Shown: positions 464 to 48,926 of the stretch, piece after piece
How positions within the stretch are numbered: the stretch's first letter is position 1
Layout: every line of letters starts with the position of its first letter
DNA from: Verrucomicrobiia bacterium
GTDB taxonomy: Bacteria > Patescibacteriota > Saccharimonadia > Saccharimonadales > JAGQNK01
Assembly (NCBI GenBank): GCA_035489575.1
Contig: DATHJY010000006.1
Location: 1-52,766 of the forward strand
Length of the DNA: 52,766 bases
Reading direction: 5' to 3'
Notes under the pieces: model-generated
What the model saw: only the letters and a program-made list of their open reading frames with translations
Databases searched by the model: none
Told to the model about the DNA's origin: nothing
Program-made: the position numbers and the translations under genes

Positions 464-531
464 ACACTTTTCGTCCTTTTGGACTCGTCAGTTCTGCTTT
501 TGCCACTAGTGTGGCACATCAGAAGAAGTGT
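464..531 (-). ncRNA. Type III hammerhead ribozyme (HHR-1)
   Basis: The minus strand reads ACACTT C TTCTG [23-nt loop with GCCAC/GTGGC hairpin] CAGAA CTGACGA GTCC-AAAA-GGAC GAA AAGTGT. The parts are stem III 5' strand, C17 cleavage site, closed stem I, CUGANGA core, closed stem II, GAA core and stem III 3' strand. The core is identical to the copy at 48103-48156, and stem III differs by a compensatory change. Confidence 0.8.
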
Positions 532-659
532 GCGCGTTCGTGAAGTGGGAGTTGGTTGTCGGGGGTTGGAAGATCCAACTGCGACCACTTCACGGCCTGA
601 CTGTATGCGCGGGGGGGGTAGTCAGGTCTTGACCAGAGTCGATGTCTGCGGGGTGCAGA

Positions 660-1154
660 CTAGGCGGGGATGTCCGGGGTGGTGGCCATGGTGGCGGTCT
701 GGCTGCGGGCCTCGGCGTTGGCCTGCTGTACGGTGGGGGTCCACCCGATGGCCTCGAGGGTCATGCCGATGTAGAAGCCCAGCCACAGCACGCCCATGCG
801 GGTGAGGTCGAGCACGTAGTGCAGGTGACCGTTCTTGTCGATGACGTAGTTGGCGGCCGTGCACTCCATCACGATGGTGATGGCGAGCAGGAGGAGGCCG
901 GCGATGATCGCCGTGAGGAACAGCGTGCCCCAGCCCTTGTACCAGTCGGAGGCACGGTTGAGCTGGATGCCGTCCTTGATGGACAGCTTGGCCGCGACGA
1001 CGCCGCTGAAGGTCGTCACGATGGCGATGCTGGACAGGACGAGGTCGCTGGTGAACTGCGTCGGCAGGAAGACGCCGGCGACGATGGCCGCGACGAGCAG
1101 GACCGCGTGGAGGGGGGTGAAGATGGTGCGAAAGATCTGGAGGAAGTGGGGCAT
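660..1154 (-). CDS. GC-rich hypothetical integral membrane protein, about 4 TM helices; distant paralog of 48282..48845
   Basis: ORF 660..1262 was trimmed to the ATG at 1152-1154 (MPHFLQIF...). It has four hydrophobic segments and GC-rich third codon positions. It shares HYV..D and GFY(I/V)G motifs and the same topology with the 48282..48845 product. Confidence 0.7.
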   Translation of the reverse strand: MPHFLQIFRTIFTPLHAVLLVAAIVAGVFLPTQFTSDLVLSSIAIVTTFSGVVAAKLSIKDGIQLNRASDWYKGWGTLFLTAIIAGLLLLAITIVMECTAANYVIDKNGHLHYVLDLTRMGVLWLGFYIGMTLEAIGWTPTVQQANAEARSQTATMATTPDIPA

Positions 1155-1217
1155 GGATCCGCCTTTGACTCTGATTCCCTTGGAAGGGGCATGCGAGAGG
1201 ATTCTCACAATAAATAC

Positions 1218-1226
1218 ATTATAACA
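1218..1226 (-). promoter_or_regulatory. Extended -10 promoter element TGtTATAAT for the 660..1154 gene
   Basis: The minus strand reads TGTTATAAT in an AT-rich spacer about 60 nt upstream of the ATG. An identical 9-mer sits at the equivalent position upstream of the paralog (48918-48926). Confidence 0.45.
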
Positions 1227-1281
1227 CAAAGACTGATAAAAAGCAATACTTATGACAGTCAAGAAACAGAGGTGGGATGTA

Positions 1282-1310
1282 TTGACTTTCTGGTATTTTT
1301 ATAGTATAAT
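1282..1310 (+). promoter_or_regulatory. Near-consensus sigma70-type promoter (TTGACT, 17-nt spacer, TATAAT)
   Basis: TTGACT lies at 1282-1287 and TATAAT at 1305-1310, separated by a 17-nt spacer. The element is 45 nt upstream of the ATG at 1355, in an AT-rich spacer between two divergent GC-rich genes. Confidence 0.6.
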
Positions 1311-1354
1311 CCCGCTCAGTCTGTATCGGAAGAACTTTCCAAGATTGGAGTGGT

Positions 1355-1840
1355 ATGACCATCTCTACCCAACCACGTCGACGGCTGCGGCCCATCGTGC
1401 TCGGCGCCCTACTGATATGCCTCGTGGCAGTCACTGGCGCTTGTGTGACGACCGGACCGTCCGAAGAGGCCACCGCCAAGGAGGAAGCCCGACAGGTTGC
1501 TCAAGAGGCAGCCCAGAGCAAGCTCGAAGCCCGTGGCTTCACGGTCGTGGAGATCTATAGCTTCGGCTATGACGACGAGACCGACTTCTCTCGGGGCACC
1601 TTCGTGACTCGTATCGATGACTGCGGGGTCGATTTAGACTTCGAGATCACCGGTGGCGAGCAGCTGGACATCTTCGTGTGGCGCGAGCCGCTGGAGTTGG
1701 AGGACGGCCAGTTCTTCGGCTATGAGCGCGAAAGGCGGTTCTTCGACAGCGAAGACGAGTACCGTGACCTTCGTGGTCTTGCCTGCTCGTCGCCCACCAC
1801 TGCCGACGCCATCGACATCGTCATTCCCTCGAGTCCCTGA
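1355..1840 (+). CDS. GC-rich hypothetical lipoprotein or secreted protein
   Basis: The N-terminus is MTISTQPRRRLRPIVLGALLICLVAVTGAC. It has a basic n-region, a hydrophobic core and a lipobox-like TGAC. The mature part is acidic, and GC3 is high. Confidence 0.7.
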   Translation: MTISTQPRRRLRPIVLGALLICLVAVTGACVTTGPSEEATAKEEARQVAQEAAQSKLEARGFTVVEIYSFGYDDETDFSRGTFVTRIDDCGVDLDFEITGGEQLDIFVWREPLELEDGQFFGYERERRFFDSEDEYRDLRGLACSSPTTADAIDIVIPSSP

Positions 1841-1856
1841 CCGACACAGAACCACC

Positions 1857-1920
1857 GAGCTGTACGTTTCCTGTGCCTTCCGAAAGGAAGGATCAACACC
1901 AAACAGGAAACGTACAGCTC
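1857..1920 (+). terminator. Long perfect hairpin downstream of the 1355..1840 gene
   Basis: An 18-bp perfect stem forms between gagctgtacgtttcctgt (1857-1874) and acaggaaacgtacagctc (1903-1920). The loop contains a nested ccttcc/ggaagg hairpin. No clean U-tract follows directly. Confidence 0.5.
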
Positions 1921-2065
1921 ATCACTAAGCTTTTATGCTCTCCCCAGTTGAAGATTTTTTATAAAAATGTTATTATAAGCTATTCATAGACACCTGATAC
2001 TACCCGTTCTTTTATCGTGGAAGTGACCAGAATGAAACACAAGAAGCGTATATAATTCTAAGAGT

Positions 2066-3340
2066 ATGTTTGTAGATAAAGTACAAGTTTTGGTCAAGGC
2101 CGGCGACGGCGGCAATGGTGCCGTTAGTTTTCGTCATGAGAAATTTATAGACAGAGGCGGCCCAGATGGCGGCGATGGCGGCGATGGCGGCGACATTATC
2201 TTTCAGGCCAGCCAAAGCGAAAATACCCTGGCTACCTTTCGGTTCCAAAAGCGGCTGGTTGCCGCAGATGGCCAACCCGGGCTCAAGACTAAAAAGCACG
2301 GCAGAAACGGCCAAGATATGACGGTCAGGGTGCCAGTAGGTACCGTGGTGACAGATACGGAAGGCAAGGTGCTAGCCGACCTAGTCCAAGAAGGCTACGA
2401 AGTGATTATTGCCGAGGGCGGCAAGGGCGGTTTTGGCAATGCTCACTTTGTTAGCAGTACGCGCCAGGCCCCGCGCATGGCCGAAAAAGGCGAAAAGGGT
2501 GACGATAGAGAGCTGACCCTAGAACTCAAGATGATCGCCGATGTCGGCCTGGTGGGTTTGCCAAACGCCGGCAAATCTACGCTACTGAGCGTTATTAGCA
2601 ATGCCAGGCCAGAGATTGCTAATTACCCCTTTACTACCCTCCGACCCAACCTGGGTGTGGTAGATGTGCATGACACTGCCCTTTTGTTTGCCGATATTCC
2701 GGGTCTCATAGAGGGTGCCAGCCAAGGCAAGGGGCTAGGGGATGAGTTCTTGCGCCACATAGAGCGTACGCTGGTACTGGTGCACATGATAGATGCCTAC
2801 CAAGACGATGTGACTGTTGCATACAAAACAATCCAAGACGAGCTAAAGGCTTACAAAATAGATCTCACCAAGCGTCCCCAGATAGTCGTGCTCAACAAGG
2901 TAGAAGGGCTGGACGACGACATCGTGGCTTCACTGCTGGCTGATCTGAAGGCCGTAACACCCCGGGGGGCTAAGCTGCTGGCTATTTCGGCACAGACCAA
3001 AGCAGGCGTAAAAGAGTTGCTGCTGGCAGTCAAAGACAAAGTAGCCAAAGAGCACGCTAAACAAGCCAAAAAACAAGAGGTAACTGACACGGCCATGCCG
3101 ATCCTACGACTCAAAAATACCGAGGACGCCTGGAAGGTAGAGAAGCTTGCTGGCGGCGGCTTCCGGGTTTCTGGCCGCAAGATAGAGCGCTTTGCTATGC
3201 GCACTGATTTTGAAAACTTTCACGCCACTCAGCGTCTGCGGGACATTATGAAAAAAATGGGCATCATGCACGAGCTCAGACGCCAAGGCCTGGAGACCGG
3301 CCACAAAATATTTATTGGACAAGACAACCTAGAGTACTAA
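2066..3340 (+). CDS. obg: GTPase Obg/CgtA
   Basis: The N-terminal Obg fold is present (FVDKVQVLVKAGDGGNGAVSFRHEKF..GGPDGGDGGDGG). The G-domain has GLPNAGKST and DIPGLIEGA. A C-terminal OCT/TGS-like extension is also present. Confidence 0.95.
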   Translation: MFVDKVQVLVKAGDGGNGAVSFRHEKFIDRGGPDGGDGGDGGDIIFQASQSENTLATFRFQKRLVAADGQPGLKTKKHGRNGQDMTVRVPVGTVVTDTEGKVLADLVQEGYEVIIAEGGKGGFGNAHFVSSTRQAPRMAEKGEKGDDRELTLELKMIADVGLVGLPNAGKSTLLSVISNARPEIANYPFTTLRPNLGVVDVHDTALLFADIPGLIEGASQGKGLGDEFLRHIERTLVLVHMIDAYQDDVTVAYKTIQDELKAYKIDLTKRPQIVVLNKVEGLDDDIVASLLADLKAVTPRGAKLLAISAQTKAGVKELLLAVKDKVAKEHAKQAKKQEVTDTAMPILRLKNTEDAWKVEKLAGGGFRVSGRKIERFAMRTDFENFHATQRLRDIMKKMGIMHELRRQGLETGHKIFIGQDNLEY

Positions 3341-3424
3341 AAGGCTTCCTAATCTGTTGTGACAGAGTTCACGCTTATGCTAAAGTAGTGATAAGTATAA
3401 AAAACATCAGCGAAAGGTCAGGCT

Positions 3425-3949
3425 ATGACGGCCAAGGGCACCAAAAAAGTACCTGCAAAGTCATCGAATAAGGGTAAACAAGTGAAGAAGGCAAGCAAGT
3501 TACCGGGGTTTTTCAGTCTAAGTAATAAAAAATTCATACTCTTGACGGTTTTTATCGTTGGCTTTGTGGTTGCGGGGTCGTACTGGCTTTATCAGAGTAG
3601 TTCTGCCAGAGTCGCCAAAGACGACAGTACGGTACAGGGGTGCGAGGCTCTAGGTGTTGTGCTCAAGCAGGGCTCTAAAGGTTCATGCGTGAAAGCTGTA
3701 CAAAAAGTTCTAAATAGTGCTAAAACCAAATATGGCAGTACGGCGCATTGGGGCTATTTAACCGAGGATGGAGTCTATGGCCCTGCTACTGCTTTGACGG
3801 TGGCTGCATACCAGAAGCGTGTCAATAGTTCTCCCTTTTTTCCAGATAGACGGCCCATTGATGTAGATGGGTCGGTGGGACCACAGACATGGTTCTGGTT
3901 CCGGCAGATTACTTGTGTCGATGTCAATACGCCTGCCTGCGGGGATTAA
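3425..3949 (+). CDS. Membrane-anchored peptidoglycan-binding-domain protein
   Basis: It has a basic N-terminus, one TM segment and a PG_binding_1-like repeat (VKAVQKVLN...DGVYGPATALTVAAYQ...VDGSVGPQTW). It is a tandem paralog of 3996..4520. Confidence 0.7.
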   Translation: MTAKGTKKVPAKSSNKGKQVKKASKLPGFFSLSNKKFILLTVFIVGFVVAGSYWLYQSSSARVAKDDSTVQGCEALGVVLKQGSKGSCVKAVQKVLNSAKTKYGSTAHWGYLTEDGVYGPATALTVAAYQKRVNSSPFFPDRRPIDVDGSVGPQTWFWFRQITCVDVNTPACGD

Positions 3950-3995
3950 TGATGTCGCTCGTATAGCAATATGTAAATAACAAAGGGGACAGACA

Positions 3996-4520: not shown

Positions 4521-4577
4521 CGTAGTGCCAGGGTCGCCTGGCGCCCTCCTGGGCTAGAAAGGTTTAAGATAAAATAC

Positions 4578-5501: not shown

Positions 5502-5508
5502 CCTGCTT

Positions 5509-5537
5509 TTGATTAAGATTGCTATTTATGGTATAAA
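5509..5537 (+). promoter_or_regulatory. Sigma70-type promoter (TTGATT, 17-nt spacer, TATAAA)
   Basis: TTGATT lies at 5509-5514 and TATAAA at 5532-5537 with a 17-nt spacer. It is about 100 nt upstream of the GTG at 5638. Confidence 0.5.
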
Positions 5538-5637
5538 TAATTTGTTATCTCTTGAGGTAGCCTGTGTGATTGCGCACAGAAATTGACAACAAGGAAGAAG
5601 CAAGCAACAGGCTAGACACCAAAAAAGGAGGGGTCTA

Positions 5638-5922
5638 GTGGAGCTTACGTGGAAGCAGACTATCGCGCTTGTATCGCTCGCCGGCATTGCCTATTACTGT
5701 CGGAGCCAGATACCGGGCATCGCCGCGTTTTGTTACGACTGGCGATGGGCGTTCGTGTTCGGTTTGGCCGGTTCGGTGATTGCACTGACTCTGGGTTTCA
5801 TTGTGTTGCTCATGGTCATGCCACCGGAAGGAGAACATACCAATACCGGACCTCCGAAAGGGTACGTCTACCGACCCCCGCCTGACGAAGACGAAGGCGA
5901 AGACATCTCCTGGATGCTCTGA
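5638..5922 (+). CDS. Small hypothetical membrane protein (94 aa) with moderately elevated GC
   Basis: The GTG start is preceded by AGGAGG. It has two to three hydrophobic segments and an acidic C-terminus. A structured 3' UTR and a hammerhead ribozyme follow on the same strand. Confidence 0.6.
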   Translation: MELTWKQTIALVSLAGIAYYCRSQIPGIAAFCYDWRWAFVFGLAGSVIALTLGFIVLLMVMPPEGEHTNTGPPKGYVYRPPPDEDEGEDISWML

Positions 5923-5947
5923 CACGAATGCGGGTATCAGAATCTGT

Positions 5948-6087
5948 TCAAGGTCTCTGTTGTTCTAAAATGCTCCTCCGGGTGCCCGTTCGCCCTGATC
6001 CACCAATCGCACCGCAGGTGTGCTTGGCGAACCAGTCCGAATTATCACTTGAAGTGGTACATTTTGCCAACAAAGACGAGACCTTGA
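5948..6087 (+). ncRNA. Stem-closed structured 3' UTR element (S/E motif, copy 1)
   Basis: A closing helix forms between tcaaggtctc (5948-5957) and gagaccttga (6078-6087). The internal 32-mer at 6027-6058 matches 34590-34621 at 25 of 32 positions by hand count. The blocks tccggGtg and cgccctg are shared. A variable hairpin (gcacc/gtgtgc here, cgtaac/gttacg in copy 2) occupies the same position. Confidence 0.5.
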
Positions 6088-6122
6088 GCAGGTTCTCTGC
6101 CCCCTTATTCTTCCTTGTCGTC

Positions 6123-6189
6123 TCTCGATTCCATAACTGATAGTTATGCTGATGAGTCCTCCCTGGTTTGTGCAGGACGAAAATCGAGA
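6123..6189 (+). ncRNA. Type III hammerhead ribozyme (HHR-2)
   Basis: The plus strand reads TCTCGATT(6123-6130) C(6131) CATAACT-GAT-AGTTATG(6132-6148) CTGATGA(6149-6155) GTCCT-[13-nt loop]-AGGAC(6156-6178) GAA(6179-6181) AATCGAGA(6182-6189). All invariant core positions are present. Stems I and II are loop-closed and stem III is open. Confidence 0.85.
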
Positions 6190-6206
6190 AGTGATAGACT
6201 GGTGTA

Positions 6207-8541: not shown

Positions 8542-8614
8542 GTTTGGGTTGGGTGCAGCCGCATGCCATTCTCAAAAAGGTTTCGGTAACTGCCCTTAGG
8601 GCAGTTTGACTGAG

Positions 8615-10109: not shown

Positions 10110-10620
10110 ATGTCCACCCAGATGACCGCCTATGCCGATAGTCCGCCCCTGCAGCAATGGGCCACCGCCAACAGGCCCCGTAAGGGGCTGCTTTGGGAGC
10201 CTGGCTACTCGGAGCAGATCATGTTTGTGGCGGACCGGCTGGCCCCGCTCTTCCTGACCTACGAAGAGCTCAAGCTCACCCCCCGTGCGGGTGGTGGGCT
10301 CGCATACATCCAAGTCCGTCGGCCTGCCCGTGTACGGGATTGTGGTCCCCGGGAAGCTTGAGATGCGTCTGCGGTGCAACTTCTACGACTGGGTGATCAG
10401 CGTGAAGTCGGATGTTCCGATCGCCGACAACTTTCACAGCCTCTTTGGGCGTGACAAGCAGCAGTTGGATGTGTACAGCGAGGGCTTCTCGTCTGACTGG
10501 GTGTTCGGGCCATACGCTGCCAACAACCAGCGTTTTAGTCTGGAGCTGCCGGACAAGTACAGCCTGTATACCTTCTGCTACCTGTTGCGGGAGGGGCTGG
10601 GGCTGCGCGTCACAGACTGA
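10110..10620 (+). pseudogene. GC-rich hypothetical cytoplasmic protein gene, split by a frameshift in a C6 tract
   Basis: One reading frame runs from the ATG at 10110 to the stop at 10361 (MSTQMTAYADSPP...ELKLTP). The other frame stays open to 10620 (..VRVVGSHTSKSVGLPVYGIVVPGKLEM...GLRVTD). The switch point coincides with the cccccc run at 10279-10284. Removing one C gives a single ORF of about 170 aa. Confidence 0.6.
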
Positions 10621-10635
10621 CCGCGGTCCGCTTGT

Positions 10636-10682
10636 GCCGGGCGCCATTTTCTTCTTAGAACGTGGCGTCCGGCTTTTCTTTT
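10636..10682 (+). terminator. Rho-independent terminator
   Basis: The stem is gccgggcgcca (10636-10646) with tggcgtccggc (10663-10673), including one G-U pair. It is followed by ttttctttt. Confidence 0.7.
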
Positions 10683-13559: not shown

Positions 13560-13572
13560 AGCTGCTGATAAC

Positions 13573-15037: not shown

Positions 15038-15214
15038 GCTATAGACAAAAACATTTTTTTATGATCTAATTACTGAAGTTAAAGTTCTGCTTTGACGCCC
15101 TTTGACAGAGCTTACTTATCTCTAGTTGTGAACTAGTTGCAAGGGTGTAACCCTGTGCCGATCAATAGTCGGTAGAGGGTTACACCCGTTCATCAACCAC
15201 AGGAGAGTCTCAGA

Positions 15215-16102
15215 GTGTCTTTTCTCGATCACTTCCTCGAGCCCGTCTACGACGACTCGACACCGCGTCGGCTGAATCCCCTTGGCATCCTCGTTCTGTG
15301 CTCGCTGGTCTTCGCTGTCATCACCGCCCTGGCGTTCGCCTTCGGCGTGCATGATGATCACGAAGCTGCCAGCAATCCCCCCGTCAGCACCACCACGGCT
15401 CCGGCCGTCGACCCCACCACGTCCACCACCGCTCCGACCACCACCTTTACCACCATCGTCACCGACGATGGTGGAGACGCCGAGGTCGACTACTGGCTGA
15501 TGAGGGGTACTGAGCTGCAGTCCATGACGGACGAGGACTGTCTGGCGCAGGACCATTTCGCCTATCTCGGCCTGACCGAGACTGACATGCCCCGTTCCTA
15601 CCCGGACGACTCGTTCTTCCACTTCGACTGTGGCACAGGCTACTGGGGCTGGTATTTCCAAGGCGCCGCCGGTGACACGTGGCAGGCCAGCCGGATCCTT
15701 CTGAGCGATCTGCCGCTGTGCGACGATCTGCCCGCTGGCGAACTGTGTCACGCGATGTTGTCGCTCGACAAGATCGGTGTGCCAACCAACCTGCATCACC
15801 CGTACTTCGAGGATGCCCTCACCCTGAGCGAGATCCACGCCGGTGACACCGTCTGCCTGCGAACCATGAGCCGCACCCCCGGCAAGCCCTCGCTGGGAGA
15901 GACCCTGACCATCGAGAGCGTCGGCACCAGTGCCTACGTTCCCCACGACTCCGACAAGGTCACGGCCTACCCGGCCTACCGCCCGAAGACGGACGACGGC
16001 GAGGACACCCTCTCCTCCTACCGTTCGGCGGAAGACGACGGCCTGGCCCCGTTCTCCAACGGTTTGTGGTCCACCGACTACGTGACGGCAGGCGACTGCT
16101 GA
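15215..16102 (+). CDS. GC-rich hypothetical membrane-anchored or secreted protein
   Basis: The GTG start is preceded by AGGAG. It has an N-terminal TM segment (LGILVLCSLVFAVITALAFAF), a Thr/Pro-rich linker and a Cys- and acid-rich globular region. GC3 is very high. Confidence 0.7.
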   Translation: MSFLDHFLEPVYDDSTPRRLNPLGILVLCSLVFAVITALAFAFGVHDDHEAASNPPVSTTTAPAVDPTTSTTAPTTTFTTIVTDDGGDAEVDYWLMRGTELQSMTDEDCLAQDHFAYLGLTETDMPRSYPDDSFFHFDCGTGYWGWYFQGAAGDTWQASRILLSDLPLCDDLPAGELCHAMLSLDKIGVPTNLHHPYFEDALTLSEIHAGDTVCLRTMSRTPGKPSLGETLTIESVGTSAYVPHDSDKVTAYPAYRPKTDDGEDTLSSYRSAEDDGLAPFSNGLWSTDYVTAGDC

Positions 16103-16167
16103 TCTCCTAACCCCTTCACAACTTCATACGAGAGACTGAACGTTTACCGTTCGATGTAAGCTCTGTC

Positions 16168-16210
16168 TCTCACACAAGCCCATACCGCCAAACTATGGGC
16201 TTGTGTGAGA
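16168..16210 (+). terminator. Strong hairpin downstream of the 15215..16102 gene
   Basis: A 16-bp perfect stem forms between tctcacacaagcccat (16168-16183) and atgggcttgtgtgaga (16195-16210). No U-tract follows, so terminator function is inferred only. Confidence 0.45.
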
Positions 16211-17455: not shown

Positions 17456-17466
17456 CGGTGTATAAT

Positions 17467-20813: not shown

Positions 20814-20982
20814 GGGCTCGAACTCGGGATATGGAACTGTCATAAGTAGGTTAGAGAAAGCAGAAGCAAGTTATTTGAAGTGGTGTGGGTGGTGGTAGCC
20901 TGATGGCGAACAGTTCCGAATAGTGTCGGTTTGTTAGCGCCACCAGGACTACCCTCCTTGGTTGTCGATCCCTTCGCTGCCT

Positions 20983-21219
20983 TCAGCCGTCGTGTGTGTG
21001 GGGTGAGTCGGAGTAGATGATGGCACCACAGCTGCACTCGAAGGGGATCATGGCATCGGACCACGGCACGAACAGGTTGGCGTTTCCGCTCAGGTCATCG
21101 CCAGTGGCGTCGGCGATGGCGAAGAGCGTGTGATCGTTGGAGAGGCCGAGATCTGTCTCGAGATCTGCGACTTTGAGGAGCCGGTCCACTTTCCTGGACT
21201 GCGCTGAGCTGGTGGACAT
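20983..21219 (-). CDS. GC-rich small hypothetical protein (78 aa)
   Basis: The sequence is MSTSSAQSRKVDRLLKVADLETDLGLSNDHTLFAIADATGDDLSGNANLFVPWSDAMIPFECSCGAIIYSDSPHTHDG. It has its own promoter and lies within a GC-rich patch. Coding status rests on ORF length and codon bias only. Confidence 0.5.
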   Translation of the reverse strand: MSTSSAQSRKVDRLLKVADLETDLGLSNDHTLFAIADATGDDLSGNANLFVPWSDAMIPFECSCGAIIYSDSPHTHDG

Positions 21220-21312
21220 CTGTCCTAGCCTTTCGGTGCTGGTCGTGTGGCTTTCAGCTTGCTTCTGCTTTGAGGTGTCTCGAGGACAGTGTTGTCTCTA
21301 CAAAACCTTTAT

Positions 21313-21341
21313 ATATTAAAATAAAAAAACTTATTTGTCAA
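21313..21341 (-). promoter_or_regulatory. Sigma70-type promoter (TTGACA, 17-nt spacer, TAATAT) for the small GC-rich gene
   Basis: On the minus strand, TTGACA is the reverse complement of 21336-21341 and TAATAT is the reverse complement of 21313-21318, with a 17-nt spacer. The surrounding tract is very AT-rich. Confidence 0.55.
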
Positions 21342-28594: not shown

Positions 28595-28874
28595 AGCGGG
28601 GTTTCCTTACTCTCAGGTACACAAATAGTCTTACGCCTAAGTGTAGACGAACTAGTATTATTGTTTGTGATTTTTGTCTCTTCTGTACTATTGAATCGGC
28701 TCGTCCGATCCAAGGGCCCAGGTGGTAATATCCATTCTGCGCCAAAATTGCTATTTTTGGCTGCAAATCACCAGGATTTTCGCTCAAAAATTATCAATTC
28801 TGGCATCAGAAGCGAATTGCCACCTGGATCCTAGCAAATAGCGGATTGATCTAGTCAATCATAATAGAAAGGAA

Positions 28875-33581: not shown

Positions 33582-34478
33582 ATGAATGGGTCTTTGACAT
33601 CTCTGAGATCCCGCATCTTGGCACTGCTGCTGGCAGTGTTCATGACGGCGGGATTTGTCGTCGTTGCCGTTCCCGGCACGGCTTCGGCCGGCGACGGGCG
33701 TTCGGCGACCCCCGAGGGTGAGATCCGGGCGCAGTACATCCACAGCTTGGACCGCCAGCCGGACCAGGGTGGCTATGACAACTACATGTGGTTCGTCCGT
33801 GAGGACTGCCGCTGGGGCATCATGGACGCTTCGTTCAAGATCGCCAACAGCGCCGAGGCCCACCAGCGGTGGCACGACAACCCCCAGGACCTCGCCGGCA
33901 TGTTGTACGCCAGCCTGCTGGACCGCGCCCCTGACCCCGGTGGCCTGCAGACCTACACCGAGGCCATCCGCACCCGTGGGCTGGAGTGGGCCACGGCGTC
34001 CATGCTGGCTTCGCCCGAGTACGAGACCCGGCTGGGCAGCCTCTGTGCAGGCAGGCAGTCGTCCAGCGCAACCATGTTCACCTGGGAAGAGGCCCAGGCC
34101 TTCGTGGACAACGAGATCCTGCCGCGCGCCAAGGACCTGGCCATCGTGTGCGGCGCGACCCACGGGACTATGGTGTCCTTGGGGGCGCTGAAGGGCAGTG
34201 GCAACTTCGCCGTGTCGTTCGTGGGCATGTCCGCGTGGCTGGCCAACCAGTTCAACAGCATGTTCAGCATCGACCGCACCTGTGGCGCAGTCGCGCAGTA
34301 CCTGCTGGCAGCGCGCCGGATCAACCAGATCACCCTGCAGGGCGATCGCTACAACCCGGTGTTCATCCAGGCCGAGAGCGGCCAGCACCGCTGGTTGACC
34401 ACCGTGTTCGACGACTTCACGCTGCGGATCGGTCCCGACCCGACCCATTGGGATCCGTACTCCGGTTCCCATTTCTAG
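33582..34478 (+). CDS. GC-rich secreted protein with DUF4214-like repeats
   Basis: The signal peptide ends in TASA. Two repeats are of the DUF4214 type (SLDRQPDQGGYDNYMWFV and LLDRAPDPGGLQTYTEAI ... ASPEY). The RBS is GGAAGGAGG and GC3 is very high. Confidence 0.75.
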   Translation: MNGSLTSLRSRILALLLAVFMTAGFVVVAVPGTASAGDGRSATPEGEIRAQYIHSLDRQPDQGGYDNYMWFVREDCRWGIMDASFKIANSAEAHQRWHDNPQDLAGMLYASLLDRAPDPGGLQTYTEAIRTRGLEWATASMLASPEYETRLGSLCAGRQSSSATMFTWEEAQAFVDNEILPRAKDLAIVCGATHGTMVSLGALKGSGNFAVSFVGMSAWLANQFNSMFSIDRTCGAVAQYLLAARRINQITLQGDRYNPVFIQAESGQHRWLTTVFDDFTLRIGPDPTHWDPYSGSHF

Positions 34479-34501
34479 GGGTGAACCCGTAGGCCCCAGA
34501 A

Positions 34502-34657
34502 CCTATCCAAAATCTCCAGTTCCGTACCAAAACCACCCATTCCGGTGACAATCCGCCCTGGCCCGCCAGCCGTAACTACGGTTACGCCAGACGAACCAGA
34601 ACGAATTCTCCCTCGAAATGGATTGATTTTGGCTACGAAAGCGAGATCTTGGATAGG
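34502..34657 (+). ncRNA. Stem-closed structured 3' UTR element (S/E motif, copy 2)
   Basis: A closing helix forms between cctatccaaaatctc (34502-34516) and gagatcttggatagg (34643-34657) with one mismatch. Its internal blocks are homologous to 5948-6087, including the 32-mer 34590-34621. Confidence 0.5.
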
Positions 34658-34670
34658 CCCTTAACCGATC

Positions 34671-34712
34671 GTGCCTGGCGAAATGTAGCGCATTTCGCCA
34701 GGCACTCTAACT
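34671..34712 (+). terminator. Rho-independent terminator
   Basis: A perfect 15-bp stem forms between gtgcctggcgaaatg (34671-34685) and catttcgccaggcac (34691-34705). It is followed by tctaactttta. Confidence 0.65.
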
Positions 34713-46553: not shown

Positions 46554-47609
46554 TTAGGTGCCGTACTTGGAGGCCAACAGGCTCAGGTCTAGCACGTTGA
46601 CCCGGCCGTCGCTGTTGATGTCTGAGCGACCTAGGTTGGCGCCTTGTTGGCCGTACCTGGATGCAAAGATGCTGAGGTCCAGGATGTTTACCTTGGTGTC
46701 TTGATTGATATCTTCTGCGCGGAAAGTAGGCGCGGGTGTAGGCGGCGGGGTCGGAGGAGGCGTAGGTGTAGGAGTTGGTGTGGGTGTTGGGGGAGGCGTA
46801 GGCGGCGGCGTTGGGGGTGGAGTGGGCGCTTGATTCGAAACAGTCACACTTACGGCGGCACTGGTGGCAACGTTGCCCTCGGCGTCATAGGCTTTGGCGG
46901 TCAGGCTGTGTACTCCGTTGCTCACCGAAGTGGTGTTCCAGCTGATAGTGAAGGGGCTGGCCGCATCCTCTAAGATAAGTTGATTGCCTCTAAAGAATTC
47001 AACGCGCGTTACGCCTTGAGCATCGGTGGCATTGGCGGTGAGGGCGACGGTGCCAGAAACGGTCTGGCCATTTGTGGGAGCGGTCAGAGACACGGTGGGC
47101 GGAGTGGTATCCAGTGGGGGCGTGGCACAGTTGTCTCCCAGCCCAGTGGGTACACAGCCGGAATCAGCCGTAAATACAACCCTATCCAGTCTCATGCCTG
47201 TTTCTCTGCCAACCATGCGAATGGTGTGATTGCCGGCGGTCAGGTTAACGGTGATCTTGGAATTGGTGTTGCCGTCACGATGATTTACCCATGTCCAGGT
47301 GTTGGTGGGCAGGGTGTTGTCCCCCACAACTACACCGCAGGTGGTGTCGTCGATCTCTAAATAATACGAATTGTTGGTGGCGTCTGGTGCACTGACTCGA
47401 CTCCAGATGGTGTAGGTAGCGGTGGCCGGCAGCGAAACGGTTTGGGTAGCCGATCCATTAGGGGTGGGCAGGGTGGCGCAAGCTGCCGAAGACCGCTGGA
47501 CAAATCCCAAAATCAGCACAAGGGCAACCAACCCTGACAAGGCGGCCAGAAGAAGGTTAAAATATTTAGCGCGAACTACCGAAGCGTAATGTGTCTGCAT
47601 GAGCGGCAT
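46554..47609 (-). CDS. Secreted protein with Ig-like domain, Pro/Thr linker and C-terminal type-I dockerin
   Basis: It has a signal or TM segment and an Ig-like segment (TVSLTAPTNGQTVSGTVALTANATDAQGVTRVEFF). A linker (PTPPPTPPPTPPPTPTPTPTP...) follows. The dockerin repeats are duplicated (DINQDTKVNILDLSIFASRYG and DINSDGRVNVLDLSLLASKYG). Confidence 0.8.
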   Translation of the reverse strand: MPLMQTHYASVVRAKYFNLLLAALSGLVALVLILGFVQRSSAACATLPTPNGSATQTVSLPATATYTIWSRVSAPDATNNSYYLEIDDTTCGVVVGDNTLPTNTWTWVNHRDGNTNSKITVNLTAGNHTIRMVGRETGMRLDRVVFTADSGCVPTGLGDNCATPPLDTTPPTVSLTAPTNGQTVSGTVALTANATDAQGVTRVEFFRGNQLILEDAASPFTISWNTTSVSNGVHSLTAKAYDAEGNVATSAAVSVTVSNQAPTPPPTPPPTPPPTPTPTPTPTPPPTPPPTPAPTFRAEDINQDTKVNILDLSIFASRYGQQGANLGRSDINSDGRVNVLDLSLLASKYGT

Positions 47610-47654
47610 ATAACTTCTCTTCAGATTACTTTTAACGCTGACTGCTGTCAAACG

Positions 47655-48059
47655 TTAAAGGCTGGTGGTCTCTACTATCTGGCACCGAAAGCCTTCTATA
47701 TTTACGGTCGACCAGGTTTCGATGCCATCTTCACTGGCTTTGTCGTAGCCAAATTTATTGCCGCGGCGGGTAAAGTACTCGCTGTAGTCGTCGAAACCAA
47801 GGCTCTTGCTTACTTTGTATATGACCGAAGTGCCTTTGTGGCATTTCTCTAAACTGGCTCCCACAGGGGGAATCGCATTGTGTGGAATGTTCTGCTTGGC
47901 CTGGCCGTATGCCCTGAGCGCTCCTCTTGGTGTCGACGAGAATAAGGTGCCCGCCAAATACAGATAGATCAAAAGAGCCACCATGCCAATTGCCAGACCG
48001 GCTATGCCCCAAAGCAGCATAAGCCTGCGCTTGGCAAACGGGCGTTTAGCATTTTTCAT
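47655..48059 (-). CDS. Membrane-anchored hypothetical protein
   Basis: The start is set at MKNAKRPFAKRR (ATG at 48057-48059), followed by one TM segment. I recognise no family. HHR-3 lies 44 nt upstream on the same strand. Confidence 0.55.
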   Translation of the reverse strand: MKNAKRPFAKRRLMLLWGIAGLAIGMVALLIYLYLAGTLFSSTPRGALRAYGQAKQNIPHNAIPPVGASLEKCHKGTSVIYKVSKSLGFDDYSEYFTRRGNKFGYDKASEDGIETWSTVNIEGFRCQIVETTSL

Positions 48060-48102
48060 TACTATCAGCATAGCAAGGTCCGGTACGGAACCAACCAAAT
48101 TT

Positions 48103-48156
48103 AACGCTTTTCGTCCTTTTGGACTCGTCAGTTCTGACCATATCAGAAGAAGCGTT
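48103..48156 (-). ncRNA. Type III hammerhead ribozyme (HHR-3)
   Basis: The minus strand reads AACGCTT C TTCTGA-TATGG-TCAGAA CTGACGA GTCC-AAAA-GGAC GAA AAGCGTT. The element is a complete 54-nt minimal hammerhead. Confidence 0.85.
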
Positions 48157-48281
48157 TGGCATGAAGTAAGGTATGGTTTGATGATCTAAAAGATCAAAAG
48201 ATCAAAAGATGAGGTCCCTCCTCATCACCCTACTTCATGGCCTAGTCGTGGCTAGGACTTTTCCCAAGGTCTTGTCCCGGA

Positions 48282-48845
48282 TCAGTTGGTGCTTGCGTCG
48301 GTCGACTCGTCGCCAGGAACCAGGCGCAGAGGGGTAACAGGTGCCAGCGGACGCGGCTGTTGGGCCGGCGACGGTGCGGACACGCGCCCGGGGAACGAGC
48401 CATCGCGGAGCGCGAACAACGTGTTCAGGACAAAGCCGACGTAGAAGCCGACCGCTGTCAGCGCGATGCGCGTGGTGTCAGGGGTGTCGATGCCCACGTA
48501 GTGGTAGTCCTGCTGGAACGACCAGATGAACATCTCCGTTATGCCGATACCGAAGGCCAAGCCGAACAGAGAGAGCCAGATCGAGTTGCGCCAATGGGAG
48601 AGGGAATCCCCCAAGGAGTGCTTGCCCTCTGCGAGGGTGACCAAGCTCGTGAGTCCACCGGCCAGAATGGCTGCAGCCGTGGTGCAAGCCACCAGCCCAG
48701 CCGGACTCTTGATGGTTCCGAGGCCGAAGGGCCAGATGATCACCATGACCATCACGGGGGCGATCAAGACCTCTGCGGTCTTGCGCATGTTGCGCCAGCC
48801 GCTCGGTGTGATCACAACATCCAGGGCGTGCCGGATGTTTGACAT
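48282..48845 (-). CDS. GC-rich hypothetical integral membrane protein, about 4 TM helices; distant paralog of 660..1154
   Basis: ORF 48282..48992 was trimmed to the ATG at 48843-48845 (MSNIRHALDVV...). It has four hydrophobic segments and a Pro-rich disordered C-terminus. GC3 is high. Confidence 0.7.
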   Translation of the reverse strand: MSNIRHALDVVITPSGWRNMRKTAEVLIAPVMVMVIIWPFGLGTIKSPAGLVACTTAAAILAGGLTSLVTLAEGKHSLGDSLSHWRNSIWLSLFGLAFGIGITEMFIWSFQQDYHYVGIDTPDTTRIALTAVGFYVGFVLNTLFALRDGSFPGRVSAPSPAQQPRPLAPVTPLRLVPGDESTDASTN

Positions 48846-48917
48846 GTTTAGCGTCCTTTCACGGGACAACTTGGGAACTTCCTGGTTTTTGGTCGAGTGG
48901 GAAGTACACTTACCAAT

Positions 48918-48926
48918 ATTATAACA
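48918..48926 (-). promoter_or_regulatory. Extended -10 promoter element TGtTATAAT for the 48282..48845 gene
   Basis: The 9-mer is the same as at 1218-1226, at a similar distance from the start codon. Confidence 0.45.

What the first reader, a model, noticed from the sequence alone, without database searches (positions are those of the whole stretch)
464..48926. Recurrent GC-rich single-gene cassettes inserted at core-gene junctions, each with its own AT-rich promoter and RNA structures
At least seven short blocks have clearly higher GC and GC3 than the roughly 50% GC backbone. They lie at 532-1925 (two divergent genes), 5509-6189, 10100-10682, 15104-16210, 20857-21341, 33538-34712 and 48103-48926.

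Each block sits exactly between housekeeping genes. Each encodes a secreted, membrane-bound or small protein that I could not assign to a family, apart from DUF4214-like repeats in one.

The blocks do not look like raw foreign DNA. Most carry a near-consensus promoter in a narrow AT-rich patch:
- TTGACT-17-TATAAT at 1282-1310
- TTGATT-17-TATAAA at 5509-5537
- TTGACA-17-TAATAT at 21313-21341
- TGtTATAAT at 1218-1226 and 48918-48926

Several have inverted repeats bracketing the ORF. Three end in a hammerhead ribozyme, and two share a conserved 3' UTR element.

If the backbone is an episymbiont such as Saccharibacteria, the composition would fit capture of high-GC DNA, for example from an actinobacterial host. 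The captured genes would then have been domesticated into a standard expression module. I know of no described system with this combined architecture.
Basis: partly seen in the sequence, partly recalled or inferred. Interest (0 to 1): 0.9.

Follow-up and report, generated by a model that had tools for sequence, protein, structure and literature searches.

The report
GC-rich gene cassettes with hammerhead ribozymes
A soil-type Saccharibacteria chromosome carries about eight lineage-specific single-gene units, mostly for fast-evolving envelope proteins with unusually GC-rich codons. Each sits in a conserved RNA frame (own promoter, 5'-3' UTR pairing, and either a terminator or a self-cleaving hammerhead ribozyme), a combination I could not find described.

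Summary
The backbone is Saccharimonadales, at 52% GC. Six ORFs have GC3 of 0.74-0.98 against 0.46-0.66 for core genes. Five of the seven blocks are GC-rich as blocks; 5509-6189 and 20857-21341 are not.

The promoter motifs sit exactly where stated. Three canonical type III hammerheads lie at cassette 3' ends: 464-531(-), 6123-6189(+) and 48103-48156(-). One is conserved in a sister genome with a compensatory stem II change. Three cassettes have ORF-bracketing inverted repeats of 11-14 nt, longer than any of 35 core genes; one shows three compensatory double changes. A 165-nt structured element is shared by two 3' UTRs.

The "captured actinobacterial DNA" reading holds for only one cassette, the DUF4214 gene. 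Its non-sister homologs that could be placed lie on 64-68% GC contigs, some with actinobacterial-type genes. The others searched are clade-restricted orphans.

Between relatives the UTR frames stay about 90% identical while the proteins diverge (dN/dS 0.2-0.6, or beyond recognition). GC3 stays near 0.82 across lineages whose synonymous sites are near saturation. High GC3 is therefore maintained, not a fading import signature.

Best reading: autonomous, RNA-framed expression units for rapidly diversifying envelope proteins, with the hammerhead forming the 3' end. Chimeric assembly is very unlikely.

The parts
464..531 (-). Hammerhead ribozyme type III (HH-A), at the 3' end of cassette A
   Evidence: It has the full core (CUGACGA / GAAA / UH) and three helices. 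A 33-nt stretch is 97% identical to HH-C. Rfam gives only a partial match of 18.6 bits.
532..659 (-). Structured 3' UTR of cassette A. The hairpin 540-548/585-593 is homologous to the one in cassette C.
   Evidence: Fold z = -3.5. Alignment with cassette C is; coordinates are.
660..1154 (-). Cassette A ORF: a 164-aa protein with several hydrophobic stretches (about four membrane spans by eye), GC3 0.98
   Evidence: No homolog was found. An independent assembly called the same ORF.
1218..1226 (-). Extended -10 motif TGTTATAAT upstream of cassette A
   Evidence: Read directly from the sequence. The identical motif precedes cassette C.
1282..1310 (+). TTGACT-17-TATAAT promoter-like site for the 1355 gene
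   Evidence: 11 of 12 positions match; best site in the scan of 1-20000.
1355..1840 (+). Cassette ORF: 161 aa, lipoprotein-like N-terminus, GC3 0.74
   Evidence: No Pfam or NCBIfam family.
1857..1920 (+). 3' hairpin with a perfect 18-bp stem
   Evidence: Fold z = -9.9.
5509..5537 (+). TTGATT-17-TATAAA promoter-like site of cassette B
   Evidence: Read directly from the sequence.
5585..5599 (+). 5' arm of the cassette B panhandle
   Evidence: Pairs with 6108-6122 at 14 of 15 positions. In L088 the arms at the homologous sites carry three compensatory double changes.
5638..5922 (+). Cassette B ORF: a 94-aa small hydrophobic protein (about two membrane spans by eye), GC3 0.65
   Evidence: The L088 ORF at the same place shows no detectable similarity.
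5938..6096 (+). 165-nt structured 3' UTR element, copy 1
   Evidence: CM R1 scores 150 bits. Eight covarying pairs. The whole 3' UTR has fold z = -5.4.
6108..6122 (+). 3' arm of the cassette B panhandle, directly abutting HH-B
6123..6189 (+). Hammerhead ribozyme type III (HH-B), 17 nt upstream of the sbcB ATG
   Evidence: Conserved in L088 at 2153-2212, with a compensatory stem II change from GUCCU/AGGAC to GUUCU/AGAAC. Rfam gives 19 bits.
10110..10620 (+). Cassette ORF with a frameshift in a C-run near 10283; GC3 0.82-0.84
   Evidence: The L088 ortholog is an intact 169-aa ORF. Independent assemblies reproduce the frameshift.
10633..10672 (+). Terminator-like hairpin after the 10110 cassette, conserved in L088
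   Evidence: Fold z = -3.7.
15104..15115 (+). 5' arm (GACAGAGCTTAC) of the 15215 cassette panhandle
   Evidence: Perfectly complementary over 12 of 12 nt to 16156-16167. The arms are identical in L088. In L089 both arm motifs are present, with one change in the 5' arm (GACAGAGCTTAT).
15138..15192 (+). 5' leader hairpin of the 15215 cassette
   Evidence: Leader fold z = -4.8. The leader structure is kept in L088 and L089, with 6 pairs changed on both sides.
15215..16102 (+). Cassette ORF: 295 aa with an N-terminal anchor, a Thr/Pro linker and a Cys-rich domain; GC3 0.82
   Evidence: Only two relatives, at 60% and 40% identity. dN/dS = 0.61 against L088.
16156..16167 (+). 3' arm of the 15215 cassette panhandle
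16168..16210 (+). 3' terminal hairpin with a perfect 17-bp stem
   Evidence: The 3' UTR has fold z = -6.9.
20857..20870 (-). 3' arm of the 20983 cassette panhandle
   Evidence: Perfectly complementary over 14 of 14 nt to 21258-21271. Longer than any control.
20983..21219 (-). Cassette ORF: 78 aa, GC3 0.78
   Evidence: The whole unit is absent from L088.
21258..21271 (-). 5' arm of the 20983 cassette panhandle
21313..21341 (-). TTGACA-17-TAATAT promoter-like site
   Evidence: Read directly from the sequence.
28712..28832 (+). Weaker third copy of the 165-nt element, not next to a GC-rich gene
   Evidence: CM R1 scores 45 bits, E = 4e-9.
33582..34478 (+). Cassette ORF: a 298-aa secreted DUF4214 protein, GC3 0.88
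   Evidence: Pfam match. Homologs lie on 64-68% GC contigs, some with actinobacterial-type genes, and one 91% homolog lies on a syntenic sister contig. The AlphaFold2 model has pLDDT 86.
34497..34661 (+). 165-nt structured 3' UTR element, copy 2
   Evidence: CM R1 scores 172 bits. 79% identical to the copy in the L088 cassette B 3' UTR.
34671..34705 (+). Terminator hairpin with a perfect 15-bp stem
48103..48156 (-). Hammerhead ribozyme type III (HH-C), just upstream of ORF 47655-48098(-)
   Evidence: Rfam Hammerhead_3 scores 40.2 bits, E = 2.5e-5. Also found by the descriptor and supported by folding.
48160..48239 (-). 3' UTR hairpin of cassette C, homologous to the one in cassette A
   Evidence: Fold z = -3.3.
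48263..48279 (-). 3' arm of the cassette C panhandle (imperfect), directly after the stop codon
48282..48845 (-). Cassette C ORF: a 187-aa protein with several hydrophobic stretches (about four membrane spans by eye), GC3 0.81; distant paralog of cassette A
   Evidence: Only one relative, at 65% identity, among 1.84e9 representatives.
48862..48875 (-). 5' arm of the cassette C panhandle, just upstream of the Shine-Dalgarno sequence
48918..48926 (-). Extended -10 motif TGTTATAAT of cassette C
   Evidence: Read directly from the sequence.

Best explanation
WHAT IT IS. The window is a chromosomal segment of an environmental Saccharimonadales bacterium. About eight lineage-specific, autonomous single-gene transcription units have accumulated in the gaps of an otherwise conserved core gene order.

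ANATOMY OF A UNIT
- A sigma-70-type promoter in an AT-rich patch.
- A leader, then a Shine-Dalgarno sequence.
- An ORF for a small membrane, lipoprotein-like or secreted protein, usually with very GC-rich third codon positions.
- A strongly structured 3' UTR.
- In at least three units, a helix formed between the 5' UTR and the 3' UTR, which closes the mRNA into a panhandle.
- A 3'-end device directly after the 3' arm or 3' UTR hairpin: either a stable hairpin terminator or a type III hammerhead ribozyme.

INFERRED MECHANISM
- The hammerhead cuts the transcript co-transcriptionally.
- The cassette mRNA is left with a 2',3'-cyclic-phosphate end tucked beside the panhandle helix, which should stabilise it.
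- Cleavage also detaches the cassette mRNA from the downstream core gene (sbcB after HH-B, ORF 47655-48098 after HH-C). That gene can then be transcribed by read-through without inheriting the cassette's RNA structure.

EVOLUTION
- The RNA frame is under purifying selection. The coding parts diversify fast or are replaced, as expected for surface proteins of an epibiont.
- One unit (DUF4214) most likely came from a high-GC actinobacterium. The others searched are orphans confined to this clade.
- Their high GC3 is actively maintained, either by selection on the mRNA or by GC-biased gene conversion at frequently recombining loci. It is not a decaying import signal.

SHOWN VERSUS INFERRED
- Shown: the anatomy, the conservation and covariation, the substitution rates, and the homolog distribution.
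- Inferred: transcription, self-cleavage in vivo, stabilisation and insulation, and the cause of the high GC3.
For: TAXON AND SYNTENY
- UvrC is 72-86% identical to Saccharimonadales MAGs.
- The core orders Rhod-UvrC-M24-holin and Obg-sbcB-UvrA-VTT-L25 are conserved. Junctions are empty or short in many relatives, and the window's cassette proteins are absent from about 160 related loci, with L088 the only exception.

COMPOSITION.

HAMMERHEADS
-.
- HH-B is conserved in L088 with a compensatory stem II pair, while the upstream coding sequence is unalignable.
- A fourth hammerhead, in L049, also follows a GC3-rich gene (SPFH protein, GC3 0.92).
- All four convincing hammerheads in about 2.5 Mb of Saccharimonadales sequence follow a cassette gene. 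Three of those genes have GC3 of 0.81-0.98.

PANHANDLES
- Exact bracketing inverted repeats are 11, 12 and 14 nt. Thirty-five core genes give 6-9 nt, and the random 99th percentile is 10 nt.
- The cassette B arms show three compensatory double changes between the window and L088.
- The 15215 arm motifs are present in L089, one base changed, although the proteins share only 40% identity and the flanking gene differs.

FRAME CONSERVED, CODING SEQUENCE DIVERGENT
- The 15215 UTRs are 89-92% identical between the window and L088, against about 70% for the coding sequence.
- dN/dS is 0.61 and 0.21 for cassettes, against 0.02-0.12 for core genes.
- GC3 is 0.82-0.84 in three lineages, with dS up to 1.3.

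STRUCTURED UTRS: z-scores from -3.1 to -9.9.

165-NT ELEMENT: it shows covariation and occurs in three genomes.

ORIGIN OF DUF4214.

NOT AN ASSEMBLY ARTEFACT: three other assemblies are 100% identical across four of the cassettes, and the L088 and P0002 contigs are syntenic.
Against: - There are no expression data and no cleavage data.
- None of the hammerheads reaches Rfam's gathering score.
- In L049 the hammerhead is followed by a terminator and convergent tRNA genes. Insulating a downstream gene therefore cannot be its only role.
- HH-A is followed by a 460-nt non-coding structured region, not by a gene.
- Clear panhandles exist in only 3 of the 8 cassettes, with 2 weaker cases.
- Cassettes 1355, 10110 and 33582 have ordinary hairpin ends.
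- The compensatory changes would equally fit pairing in single-stranded DNA.
- Covariation rests on only two or three sequences.
- The lower dS of the cassettes could also reflect exchange between lineages after they split, rather than constraint.
Confidence: 0.5

Rival explanations
1. All cassettes are pieces of high-GC DNA captured fairly recently from actinobacterial hosts. Each was then fitted with a native promoter and RNA elements.
For: - The DUF4214 relatives that could be placed lie on 64-68% GC contigs, some with actinobacterial-type genes, and in Pseudonocardia.
- Cassette codon usage resembles those contigs (pooled r = 0.90, against 0.66 with the core).
- GC3 reaches 0.98.
- The junctions are empty in relatives.
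- From my own knowledge: cultured Saccharibacteria are epibionts of Actinobacteria and are naturally competent.
Against: - The A, C and 15215 proteins have no actinobacterial homologs, although billions of proteins were searched.
- The only relatives of 15215 sit in Saccharimonadales-type DNA and carry the same UTR frame.
- GC3 has not moved toward the backbone value, although synonymous divergence in core genes is near saturation.
- The GC-rich zone starts and stops at the ORF boundaries.
Confidence: 0.2
2. The units are DNA-level mobile cassettes. On this view the bracketing inverted repeats and the 165-nt rod-like element are recombination or transposition sites. They would resemble MITE/REPIN elements, IS200-type palindrome elements, or attC sites. 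They would not be RNA elements.
For: - Inverted repeats bracket the ORFs.
- The 165-nt element is dispersed, in both orientations and in different contexts, including a copy far from any cassette.
- L088 has an extra 172-nt insert, rod-like by eye, inside a cassette 3' UTR.
- The 15215 cassette has a different neighbour in L089.
- A Y1 (RAYT/IS200-like) transposase with flanking palindromes lies in the window and is absent from L088.
Against: - The palindromes beside the Y1 gene occur nowhere else in the window.
- No integrase was seen among the annotated ORFs.
- The cassettes are not arrayed.
- The predicted promoters lie outside the arms, so the arms do not delimit the functional unit.
- No target-site duplication could be defined at the one insertion compared with an empty site.
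- The hammerheads and the Shine-Dalgarno-adjacent arms make sense only in RNA.
Confidence: 0.15
3. The hammerhead-associated membrane-protein units (A, B, C) work like type I toxin mRNAs such as hok or AapA1. A long-distance 5'-3' interaction would keep a very stable mRNA translationally silent until its 3' end is processed.
For: - The products are small hydrophobic proteins.
- There is 5'-3' pairing, and in A and C the 5' arm ends 3-4 nt before the Shine-Dalgarno sequence.
- The 3' UTRs are highly structured.
- A defined 3' processing site is present.
- That hok and AapA1 mRNAs use 5'-3' fold-back locks is from my own knowledge.
Against: - The proteins are 94-187 aa, well above typical type I toxins.
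- Hammerhead cleavage leaves the 3' arm intact, so it would not open the lock.
- No antisense RNA can be identified from sequence alone.
- Non-membrane cassettes (15215, 20983) have the clearest panhandles.
Confidence: 0.08
4. Assembly chimera or binning artefact. On this view high-GC fragments from other organisms were stitched into a Saccharibacteria contig.
For: - The sequence comes from a metagenome.
- The GC shifts are abrupt.
- Contigs from independent assemblies all end inside the repeated element at the window's left end.
Against: - Assemblies from three other samples or runs are 100% identical over 4.6-13.3 kb that span four cassettes.
- Two related species carry cassettes at the same junctions.
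- The GC shift coincides with ORF boundaries inside conserved UTR frames.
Confidence: 0.02

Closest known systems
Hammerhead ribozymes flanking single genes or short gene blocks in bacterial and prophage polycistronic transcripts (Perreault et al. 2011, PMC3088659)
   Same: Both are canonical hammerheads placed between genes on one transcript. In both, the identity of the flanked genes is not conserved. The inferred role is processing into single-gene mRNAs.
   Different: - Here the context is a Saccharibacteria chromosome with no prophage or integrase genes found nearby.
- There is one ribozyme per unit, always at the 3' end of a lineage-specific gene.
- In three of four cases that gene is extremely GC3-rich.
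- In cassette B and the L049 unit, the ribozyme lies directly beside, or 8 nt after, the 3' arm of a 5'-3' UTR helix.
- I found no paper in the searched library linking hammerheads with Saccharibacteria or Patescibacteria.
Horizontally acquired genomic islets recognised by atypical GC and codon usage
   Same: The genes are lineage-specific and compositionally deviant. They are inserted at junctions that are empty in relatives. One has clear relatives on high-GC contigs, some with actinobacterial-type genes.
   Different: - The units are single genes, not islands.
- There are no flanking mobility genes.
- The deviation is confined to the ORF.
- It has not ameliorated across speciation.
- Most of the proteins have no donor-side homologs.
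Long-distance 5'UTR-3'UTR pairing in bacterial mRNAs (hok/sok fold-back inhibition, H. pylori AapA1, S. aureus icaR); cited from my own knowledge
   Same: A helix between the two ends of an mRNA encloses the ORF. It is conserved through compensatory change.
   Different: - Those cases are single regulatory loci. Here the feature recurs on unrelated genes in one genome.
- It is combined with a ribozyme or hairpin end.
- The arms mostly lie far from the ribosome-binding site.
MITE, REPIN or Correia-type intergenic repeat elements that fold into long hairpins in 3' UTRs
   Same: The 165-nt element is a dispersed, rod-like, clade-restricted repeat. It is found in 3' UTRs and in both orientations.
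   Different: - It has a branched internal structure with a conserved core sequence, and covariation in its long closing stem.
- No cognate transposase was identified.
- Only 3 copies were found in the window and 5 in all the DNA examined.

Membership tests
Hammerhead ribozyme, type III | Conserved catalytic core: CUGANGA, GAAA, and a U-H cleavage site with the A15.1-U16.1 pair | tested here: met
   All three window copies, and the L049 and L088 copies, carry the full core with no mispair next to it.
Hammerhead ribozyme, type III | Three helices around the core, with stems I and II closed by loops and stem III open | tested here: met
   The minimum-free-energy folds reproduce the three-helix junction for all three copies. 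Stems are 4-9 bp long.
Hammerhead ribozyme, type III | Covariation that preserves the helices | tested here: met
   For HH-B between the window and L088, stem II shows C-G to U-A and stem I shows A-U to G-U. This rests on only two sequences.
Hammerhead ribozyme, type III | Score at or above the Rfam RF00008 gathering threshold of 48.5 bits | tested here: not met
   HH-C scores 40.2 bits and HH-B 19 bits. HH-A scores 18.6 bits, and only against the type I model. The long loops in stem I or stem II probably depress the scores.
Hammerhead ribozyme, type III | Self-cleavage activity | not testable with these tools
   This needs in vitro transcription or in vivo end mapping.
Recent horizontal transfer from Actinobacteria | Closest homologs outside the clade are in the proposed donor group | tested here: inconclusive
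   Met for DUF4214. Not met for A, C and 15215. Cassettes 1355, 5638, 10110 and 20983 were not searched against the large databases.
Recent horizontal transfer from Actinobacteria | Composition drifting toward the recipient's (amelioration) | tested here: not met
   GC3 is 0.82/0.82/0.84 in the window, L088 and L089. Over the same span, core dS is 0.9-2.5 and cassette dS is up to 1.3.
Integron gene cassettes (attC) | Integron integrase and/or tandem arrays of promoterless ORF-attC units | tested here: not met
   The units are dispersed singly and each has its own promoter-like site. No integrase domain was found among the roughly 50 ORFs scanned.
Integron gene cassettes (attC) | attC core sites (R''/R', GTTRRRY) with extrahelical bases | not tested
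   The 3' rods were not compared with an attC model.
IS200/IS605-type or REP/RAYT-mobilised elements | Subterminal palindromes matching those that flank the resident Y1 transposase | tested here: not met
   The palindrome TTTCAGGGTTCGACCCTGAAA occurs only beside the Y1 gene at 17415-17452 and 18095-18115.
Type I toxin-antitoxin mRNA (hok/AapA1-like) | Small (under about 60 aa) hydrophobic toxin, a 5'-3' fold-back lock, and a cis-antisense RNA | tested here: inconclusive
   A fold-back helix is present. The proteins are 94-187 aa. An antisense RNA cannot be tested from sequence.

The most novel reading that the evidence does not exclude
Saccharimonadales may possess a dedicated cassette system. 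Conserved RNA frames would hold hypervariable genes for envelope proteins. A frame consists of a leader, a 5'-3' panhandle, a structured 3' module, and a hammerhead or hairpin end.

In this reading the conserved frames serve two purposes. They act as an mRNA-stabilising and insulating chassis. They also act as homology arms for allele exchange by natural transformation. Frequent recombination, through GC-biased gene conversion, or selection on the mRNA would then lock third codon positions at 80-98% GC.

A bolder variant, which the evidence does not exclude, is that the host-like codon usage matters. These very stable mRNAs or their genes might be used in, or exchanged with, the high-GC actinobacterial host.
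Probability: 0.15. Interest if true: 0.85.

Novelty: new variant of a known kind. Interest (0 to 1): 0.7.

Why it matters
Saccharibacteria are obligate epibionts with tiny genomes, and how they vary their surface and host-interaction proteins is largely unknown. Here the fastest-evolving, clade-specific envelope genes share a conserved RNA chassis and an extreme, stably maintained codon bias. If that holds up, three things follow.

- It gives a handle for finding the host-interaction gene set of uncultured Saccharimonadales.
- It gives bacterial chromosomal hammerheads a concrete, testable job: forming an mRNA 3' end without terminating transcription, beside a protective 5'-3' helix. Their function has been open since 2011.
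- It gives a natural case for separating imported GC from maintained GC, with implications for how compositional HGT detectors are read in CPR genomes.

Tried and rejected
- RFAM AND tRNA SCANS. Rfam at gathering thresholds found nothing in the window. The tRNA/tmRNA scan found none.
- PROTEIN FAMILIES. Pfam and NCBIfam scans of the cassette proteins gave only the DUF4214 match.
- PHAGE AND PLASMID SEARCHES. tblastn of the DUF4214 protein against phages and plasmids, and of the 15215 protein against plasmids, gave nothing relevant.
- STRUCTURE OF THE DUF4214 PROTEIN. AlphaFold2 gave a confident model (pLDDT 86). Foldseek against the PDB matched only the phycobilisome-linker-like N-terminal half. 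No function could be assigned to the C-terminal half.
- HAMMERHEADS IN VIRAL CONTIGS. A hammerhead-pattern scan of viral contigs found similar type III ribozymes. They lie in 27-45% GC phage contigs that share no genes with the window, so no link was established.
- HAMMERHEADS IN sbcB-CENTRED LOCI. A scan of 80 sbcB-centred metagenome loci found no conserved hammerhead upstream of sbcB. HH-B is therefore specific to the window/L088 lineage.
- TTTGACAG MOTIF. This motif starts the 5' arm in the 15215 unit (window, L088, L089), the L088 copy of cassette B and the L049 unit; the window's cassette B has TTGACAAC there. It is not enriched in the window overall: 5 found against 2.0 expected. I dropped it as a motif claim.
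- RNAduplex ON UTR PAIRS. It was uninformative for most cassettes because it allows very loose duplexes. Exact inverted-repeat length with controls was used instead.
- TARGET-SITE DUPLICATION. I looked for one at the 20983 insertion by comparing with the empty L088 site. The left boundary is blurred by divergence of the neighbouring gene's C-terminus.
- LITERATURE. Searches linking hammerheads with Saccharibacteria or Patescibacteria found nothing relevant. A search on actinobacterial transfer into Saccharibacteria found nothing usable; an earlier, broader one was not followed up.

Full report
**1. What the window is**

The window is 52.1% GC. Its annotated genes include Obg, exonuclease I, prephenate dehydratase, UvrA, UvrC and L25. 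They also include four tandem ABC exporters, an M24 peptidase, IMPDH, and cohesin- and dockerin-domain proteins. UvrC is 72-86% identical to proteins of many Saccharibacteria/Saccharimonadales MAGs.

I fetched about 160 related loci around UvrC and sbcB. They show two conserved core orders:
- Rhodanese-(HAD)-UvrC-M24-holin
- Obg-sbcB-(PDT)-UvrA-VTT-L25

The inter-core gaps are short or empty in many relatives. For example, UvrC and M24 are fewer than 120 nt apart in about half of 70 genomes.

**2. Composition**

Five of the seven blocks are significantly GC-rich against equal-sized background windows (z = 2.0-4.3). Blocks 5509-6189 (0.504) and 20857-21341 (0.532) are not.

The signal is concentrated in third codon positions:

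| ORF | GC3 |
|---|---|
| 660-1154(-) | 0.98 |
| 33582-34478 | 0.88 |
| 10110-10620 | 0.82-0.84 |
| 15215-16102 | 0.82 |
| 48282-48845(-) | 0.81 |
| 20983-21219(-) | 0.78 |
| 1355-1840 | 0.74 |
| 5638-5922 | 0.65 |
| annotated core genes | 0.46-0.66 |

A crude GC3-outlier screen found about 22 such ORFs in 2.41 Mb of Saccharimonadales loci. Five or six are in this window and three are in its close relative L088. The phenomenon therefore exists elsewhere in the order but is unusually dense in this lineage.

**3. The cassettes are real**

Contigs from three other assemblies are 100% identical to the window over 4.6-13.3 kb (ERZ27268082, ERZ27268085 and a Logan assembly of SRR7026570). They span four cassettes and reproduce the frameshift in the 10110 gene.

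L088 is a different species whose core proteins are 75-97% identical to the window's. It carries cassettes at the same junctions. A contig encoding a 91% identical DUF4214 protein has the same order, UvrC-DUF4214-GDSL-M24. Chimeric assembly is therefore very unlikely.

**4. Promoters and RNA elements**

All the stated promoter motifs are at the stated coordinates. They are consensus matches only. Every cassette ORF is preceded by a Shine-Dalgarno-like sequence.

*Hammerheads.* Three canonical type III hammerheads are present: 464-531(-), 6123-6189(+) and 48103-48156(-). Each has the complete core and three helices.
- My descriptor found 4 hits in the first 1.56 Mb scanned and none in shuffles. 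It found no further convincing hit in 1.0 Mb of Saccharimonadales loci fetched afterwards.
- None passes Rfam's gathering score; the best is 40.2 of 48.5 bits.
- HH-B is conserved in L088 with a compensatory change in stem II. The upstream coding sequence there is unalignable and the two proteins show no similarity.
- The fourth hammerhead, in genome CP023991 (L049), again follows a GC3-rich gene: an SPFH membrane protein with GC3 0.92.

*Panhandles.* Inverted repeats bracket the ORFs:
- 5585-5599 with 6108-6122 (14 of 15 positions)
- 15104-15115 with 16156-16167 (12 of 12)
- 21258-21271 with 20857-20870 (14 of 14)

As exact runs these are 11, 12 and 14 nt. Thirty-five core genes give 6-9 nt, and the random 99th percentile is 10 nt.
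- In L088 the cassette B arms lie at the homologous places and differ by three compensatory double substitutions.
- The 15215 arms are identical in L088. Both arm motifs are also present in L089/L090, with one change in the 5' arm. There the protein is only 40% identical and the neighbouring gene is different.
- Cassettes A and C have weaker arms that hug the ORF. The 5' arm ends just before the Shine-Dalgarno sequence and the 3' arm starts just after the stop codon.

*Structured 3' UTRs.* All the 3' UTRs are significantly structured, with z from -3.1 to -9.9.

*Shared 165-nt element.* It occurs in the 3' UTRs of the unrelated cassettes 5638 and 33582, in the L088 copy of cassette B, in L118 in the opposite orientation, and weakly at 28712-28832. 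It has eight covarying pairs.

*Paralogous cassettes.* A and C are distant paralogs as whole units. They share the same extended -10, related 3' UTR hairpins, and a 33-nt hammerhead stretch that is 97% identical. Their proteins are only about 25% identical.

**5. Origin**

*DUF4214.* The family has 34 members in the search. Two are in Saccharimonadales (the window and its sister contig). Every other member whose DNA I could read lies on a 64-68% GC contig. Some of these contigs carry actinobacterial-type neighbours such as Ser/Thr kinases, TetR, GntR and DUF1707. In one case the gene lies in an apparent operon with an NlpC/P60 hydrolase. Two members are named Pseudonocardia. Transfer from an actinobacterium into this lineage is the parsimonious reading for this cassette.

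*The other cassettes.*
- Protein A has no homolog.
- Protein C has a single 65% relative among 1.84 billion cluster representatives.
- The 15215 protein has two relatives, both in Saccharimonadales-type DNA.
- No phage or plasmid relatives were found.

**6. Evolutionary dynamics**

Comparison of the window with L088:

| | dS | dN/dS |
|---|---|---|
| core genes | 0.9-2.5 | 0.02-0.12 |
| 15215 cassette | 0.53 | 0.61 (dN 0.32) |
| 10285 part of the 10110 gene | 0.62 | 0.21 |

- GC3 is 0.82 in both genomes for 15215. It is 0.84 in L089, where the flanks are only 43-46% GC and dS is about 1.3.
- The UTR frames are 89-92% identical between the window and L088. Part of the 3' UTR is 85% identical even to L089.
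- By a rough two-state calculation of my own (inference), a neutral import would have lost about half of its GC3 excess over the core-gene divergence. That has not happened.

Either synonymous sites are constrained or pushed toward GC, or the cassettes are exchanged between lineages more recently than the core genes diverged. Both differ from the simple 'raw capture' picture.

**7. Mechanism proposed**

Each unit is an autonomous, RNA-framed expression module for a rapidly diversifying envelope protein. The products are:
- membrane proteins: A, B, C and the L049 SPFH protein;
- a lipoprotein-like protein: 1355;
- secreted or anchored proteins: 15215 and 33582.

The 5'-3' helix and the structured 3' UTR should protect both mRNA ends. 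The end itself is made by a hairpin, or by a hammerhead where the unit lies upstream of a co-directional gene. Examples are sbcB, 17 nt after HH-B, and ORF 47655-48098 right after HH-C.

Cleavage leaves a cyclic-phosphate end 9 nt beyond the 3' arm in cassette B. It also frees the downstream message. This resembles the processing role proposed for prophage hammerheads (PMC3088659) and, from my own knowledge, engineered ribozyme insulators.

Weak points:
- In L049 a terminator and convergent tRNA genes follow the ribozyme.
- HH-A is followed by a non-coding structured region rather than a gene.
- Nothing about expression or cleavage is measured.

**8. Rivals**

| Rival | Confidence |
|---|---|
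| General recent import from Actinobacteria | 0.2 |
| DNA-level mobile cassettes | 0.15 |
| hok-like translational lock | 0.08 |
| Assembly artefact | 0.02 |

The evidence for and against each is given in the Rival explanations section.

**9. Novelty**

Each ingredient is known: hammerheads between bacterial genes, HGT islets, 5'-3' UTR pairing, and hairpin repeats in 3' UTRs. I could not find the combination described in the searched library. That combination is as follows:
- conserved RNA frames hold hypervariable genes with stably extreme GC3;
- a ribozyme forms the 3' end;
- the setting is a Saccharibacteria chromosome.

No paper in the library links hammerheads with Saccharibacteria or Patescibacteria. 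I rate it a new variant of a known kind, with interest 0.7.

Noticed in passing
window 1-463 and about 8690-9120: Two related non-coding regions share several colinear conserved segments and are extraordinarily structured (z = -8.6 to -11), each closed by long terminal stems. Copy 1 abuts HH-A. Copy 2 occupies the junction where L088 has a different GC-rich cassette (L088 4417-4935). There is no Rfam match and no copy in any other fetched locus. Independent assemblies break inside copy 1.
   Followed up: partly
window 17415-18121: A low-GC (0.42) Y1 tyrosine transposase gene lies at 17458-18081. It gives weak IS200 and RAYT-like matches. Perfect palindromes built on TTTCAGGGTTCGACCCTGAAA flank it. 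The whole unit is absent from L088, and the palindrome occurs nowhere else in the window.
   Followed up: yes
window about 10283 (C-run in 10110-10620): A one-base frameshift relative to the intact 169-aa ortholog in L088. It is reproduced in independent assemblies. It is therefore a real pseudogene, a slippery or phase-variable run, or a shared systematic error.
   Followed up: partly
L088 about 10617-10788: A 172-nt insert with long internal inverted repeats, rod-like by eye, sits inside the conserved 3' UTR of the 15215-type cassette. It lies between the two halves of a stem that is contiguous in the window. This suggests that hairpin-type insertions into cassette 3' UTRs are recurrent.
   Followed up: no
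L118 13765-14304 and 14320-14496: At the PDT|UvrA junction of a relative, a 179-aa ORF shows by eye two H-x-T/S motifs (HITTT, HFSAT) like 2H phosphoesterases, enzymes that act on cyclic-phosphate RNA ends. It lies next to an inverted copy of the 165-nt element. Pfam and NCBIfam gave no match, so this is unverified.
   Followed up: partly
window 21434-28594: Four tandem paralogous ABC exporter genes (587-603 aa, 71-79% nucleotide identity in the repeated segments) on the minus strand. The array is conserved in L088 and in the P0002 contig.
   Followed up: no
window 3425-3949 and 3996-4520; 4578-5501; 46554-47651: Lineage-specific envelope genes of normal GC also fill core junctions. They are two tandem PG_binding_1 paralogs, a cohesin-domain protein, and a Big_7 plus dockerin protein with a 12-nt Gly-rich tandem repeat at 46726-46826. 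Of these, only the second PG-binding paralog (68%; the first matches the same L088 stretch at 43%) and the cohesin protein (75%) have counterparts, and only in L088.
   Followed up: partly
L092, L098, L101, L103, L105, L115 (IMG/VR contigs): Compact 53-nt type III hammerheads with the same stem II design as HH-A and HH-C (GUUC-AAAA-GAAC against GUCC-AAAA-GGAC). They occur in 27-37% GC phage contigs that share no genes with the window.
   Followed up: partly
L147 1263-1730(-), L160 669-1172(-) and 2039-2521(-), L004 15138-15377: Other Saccharimonadales genomes have isolated GC3-outlier ORFs. The L147 ORF has a 12-nt bracketing inverted repeat. This suggests the architecture extends beyond the window's lineage.
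   Followed up: partly
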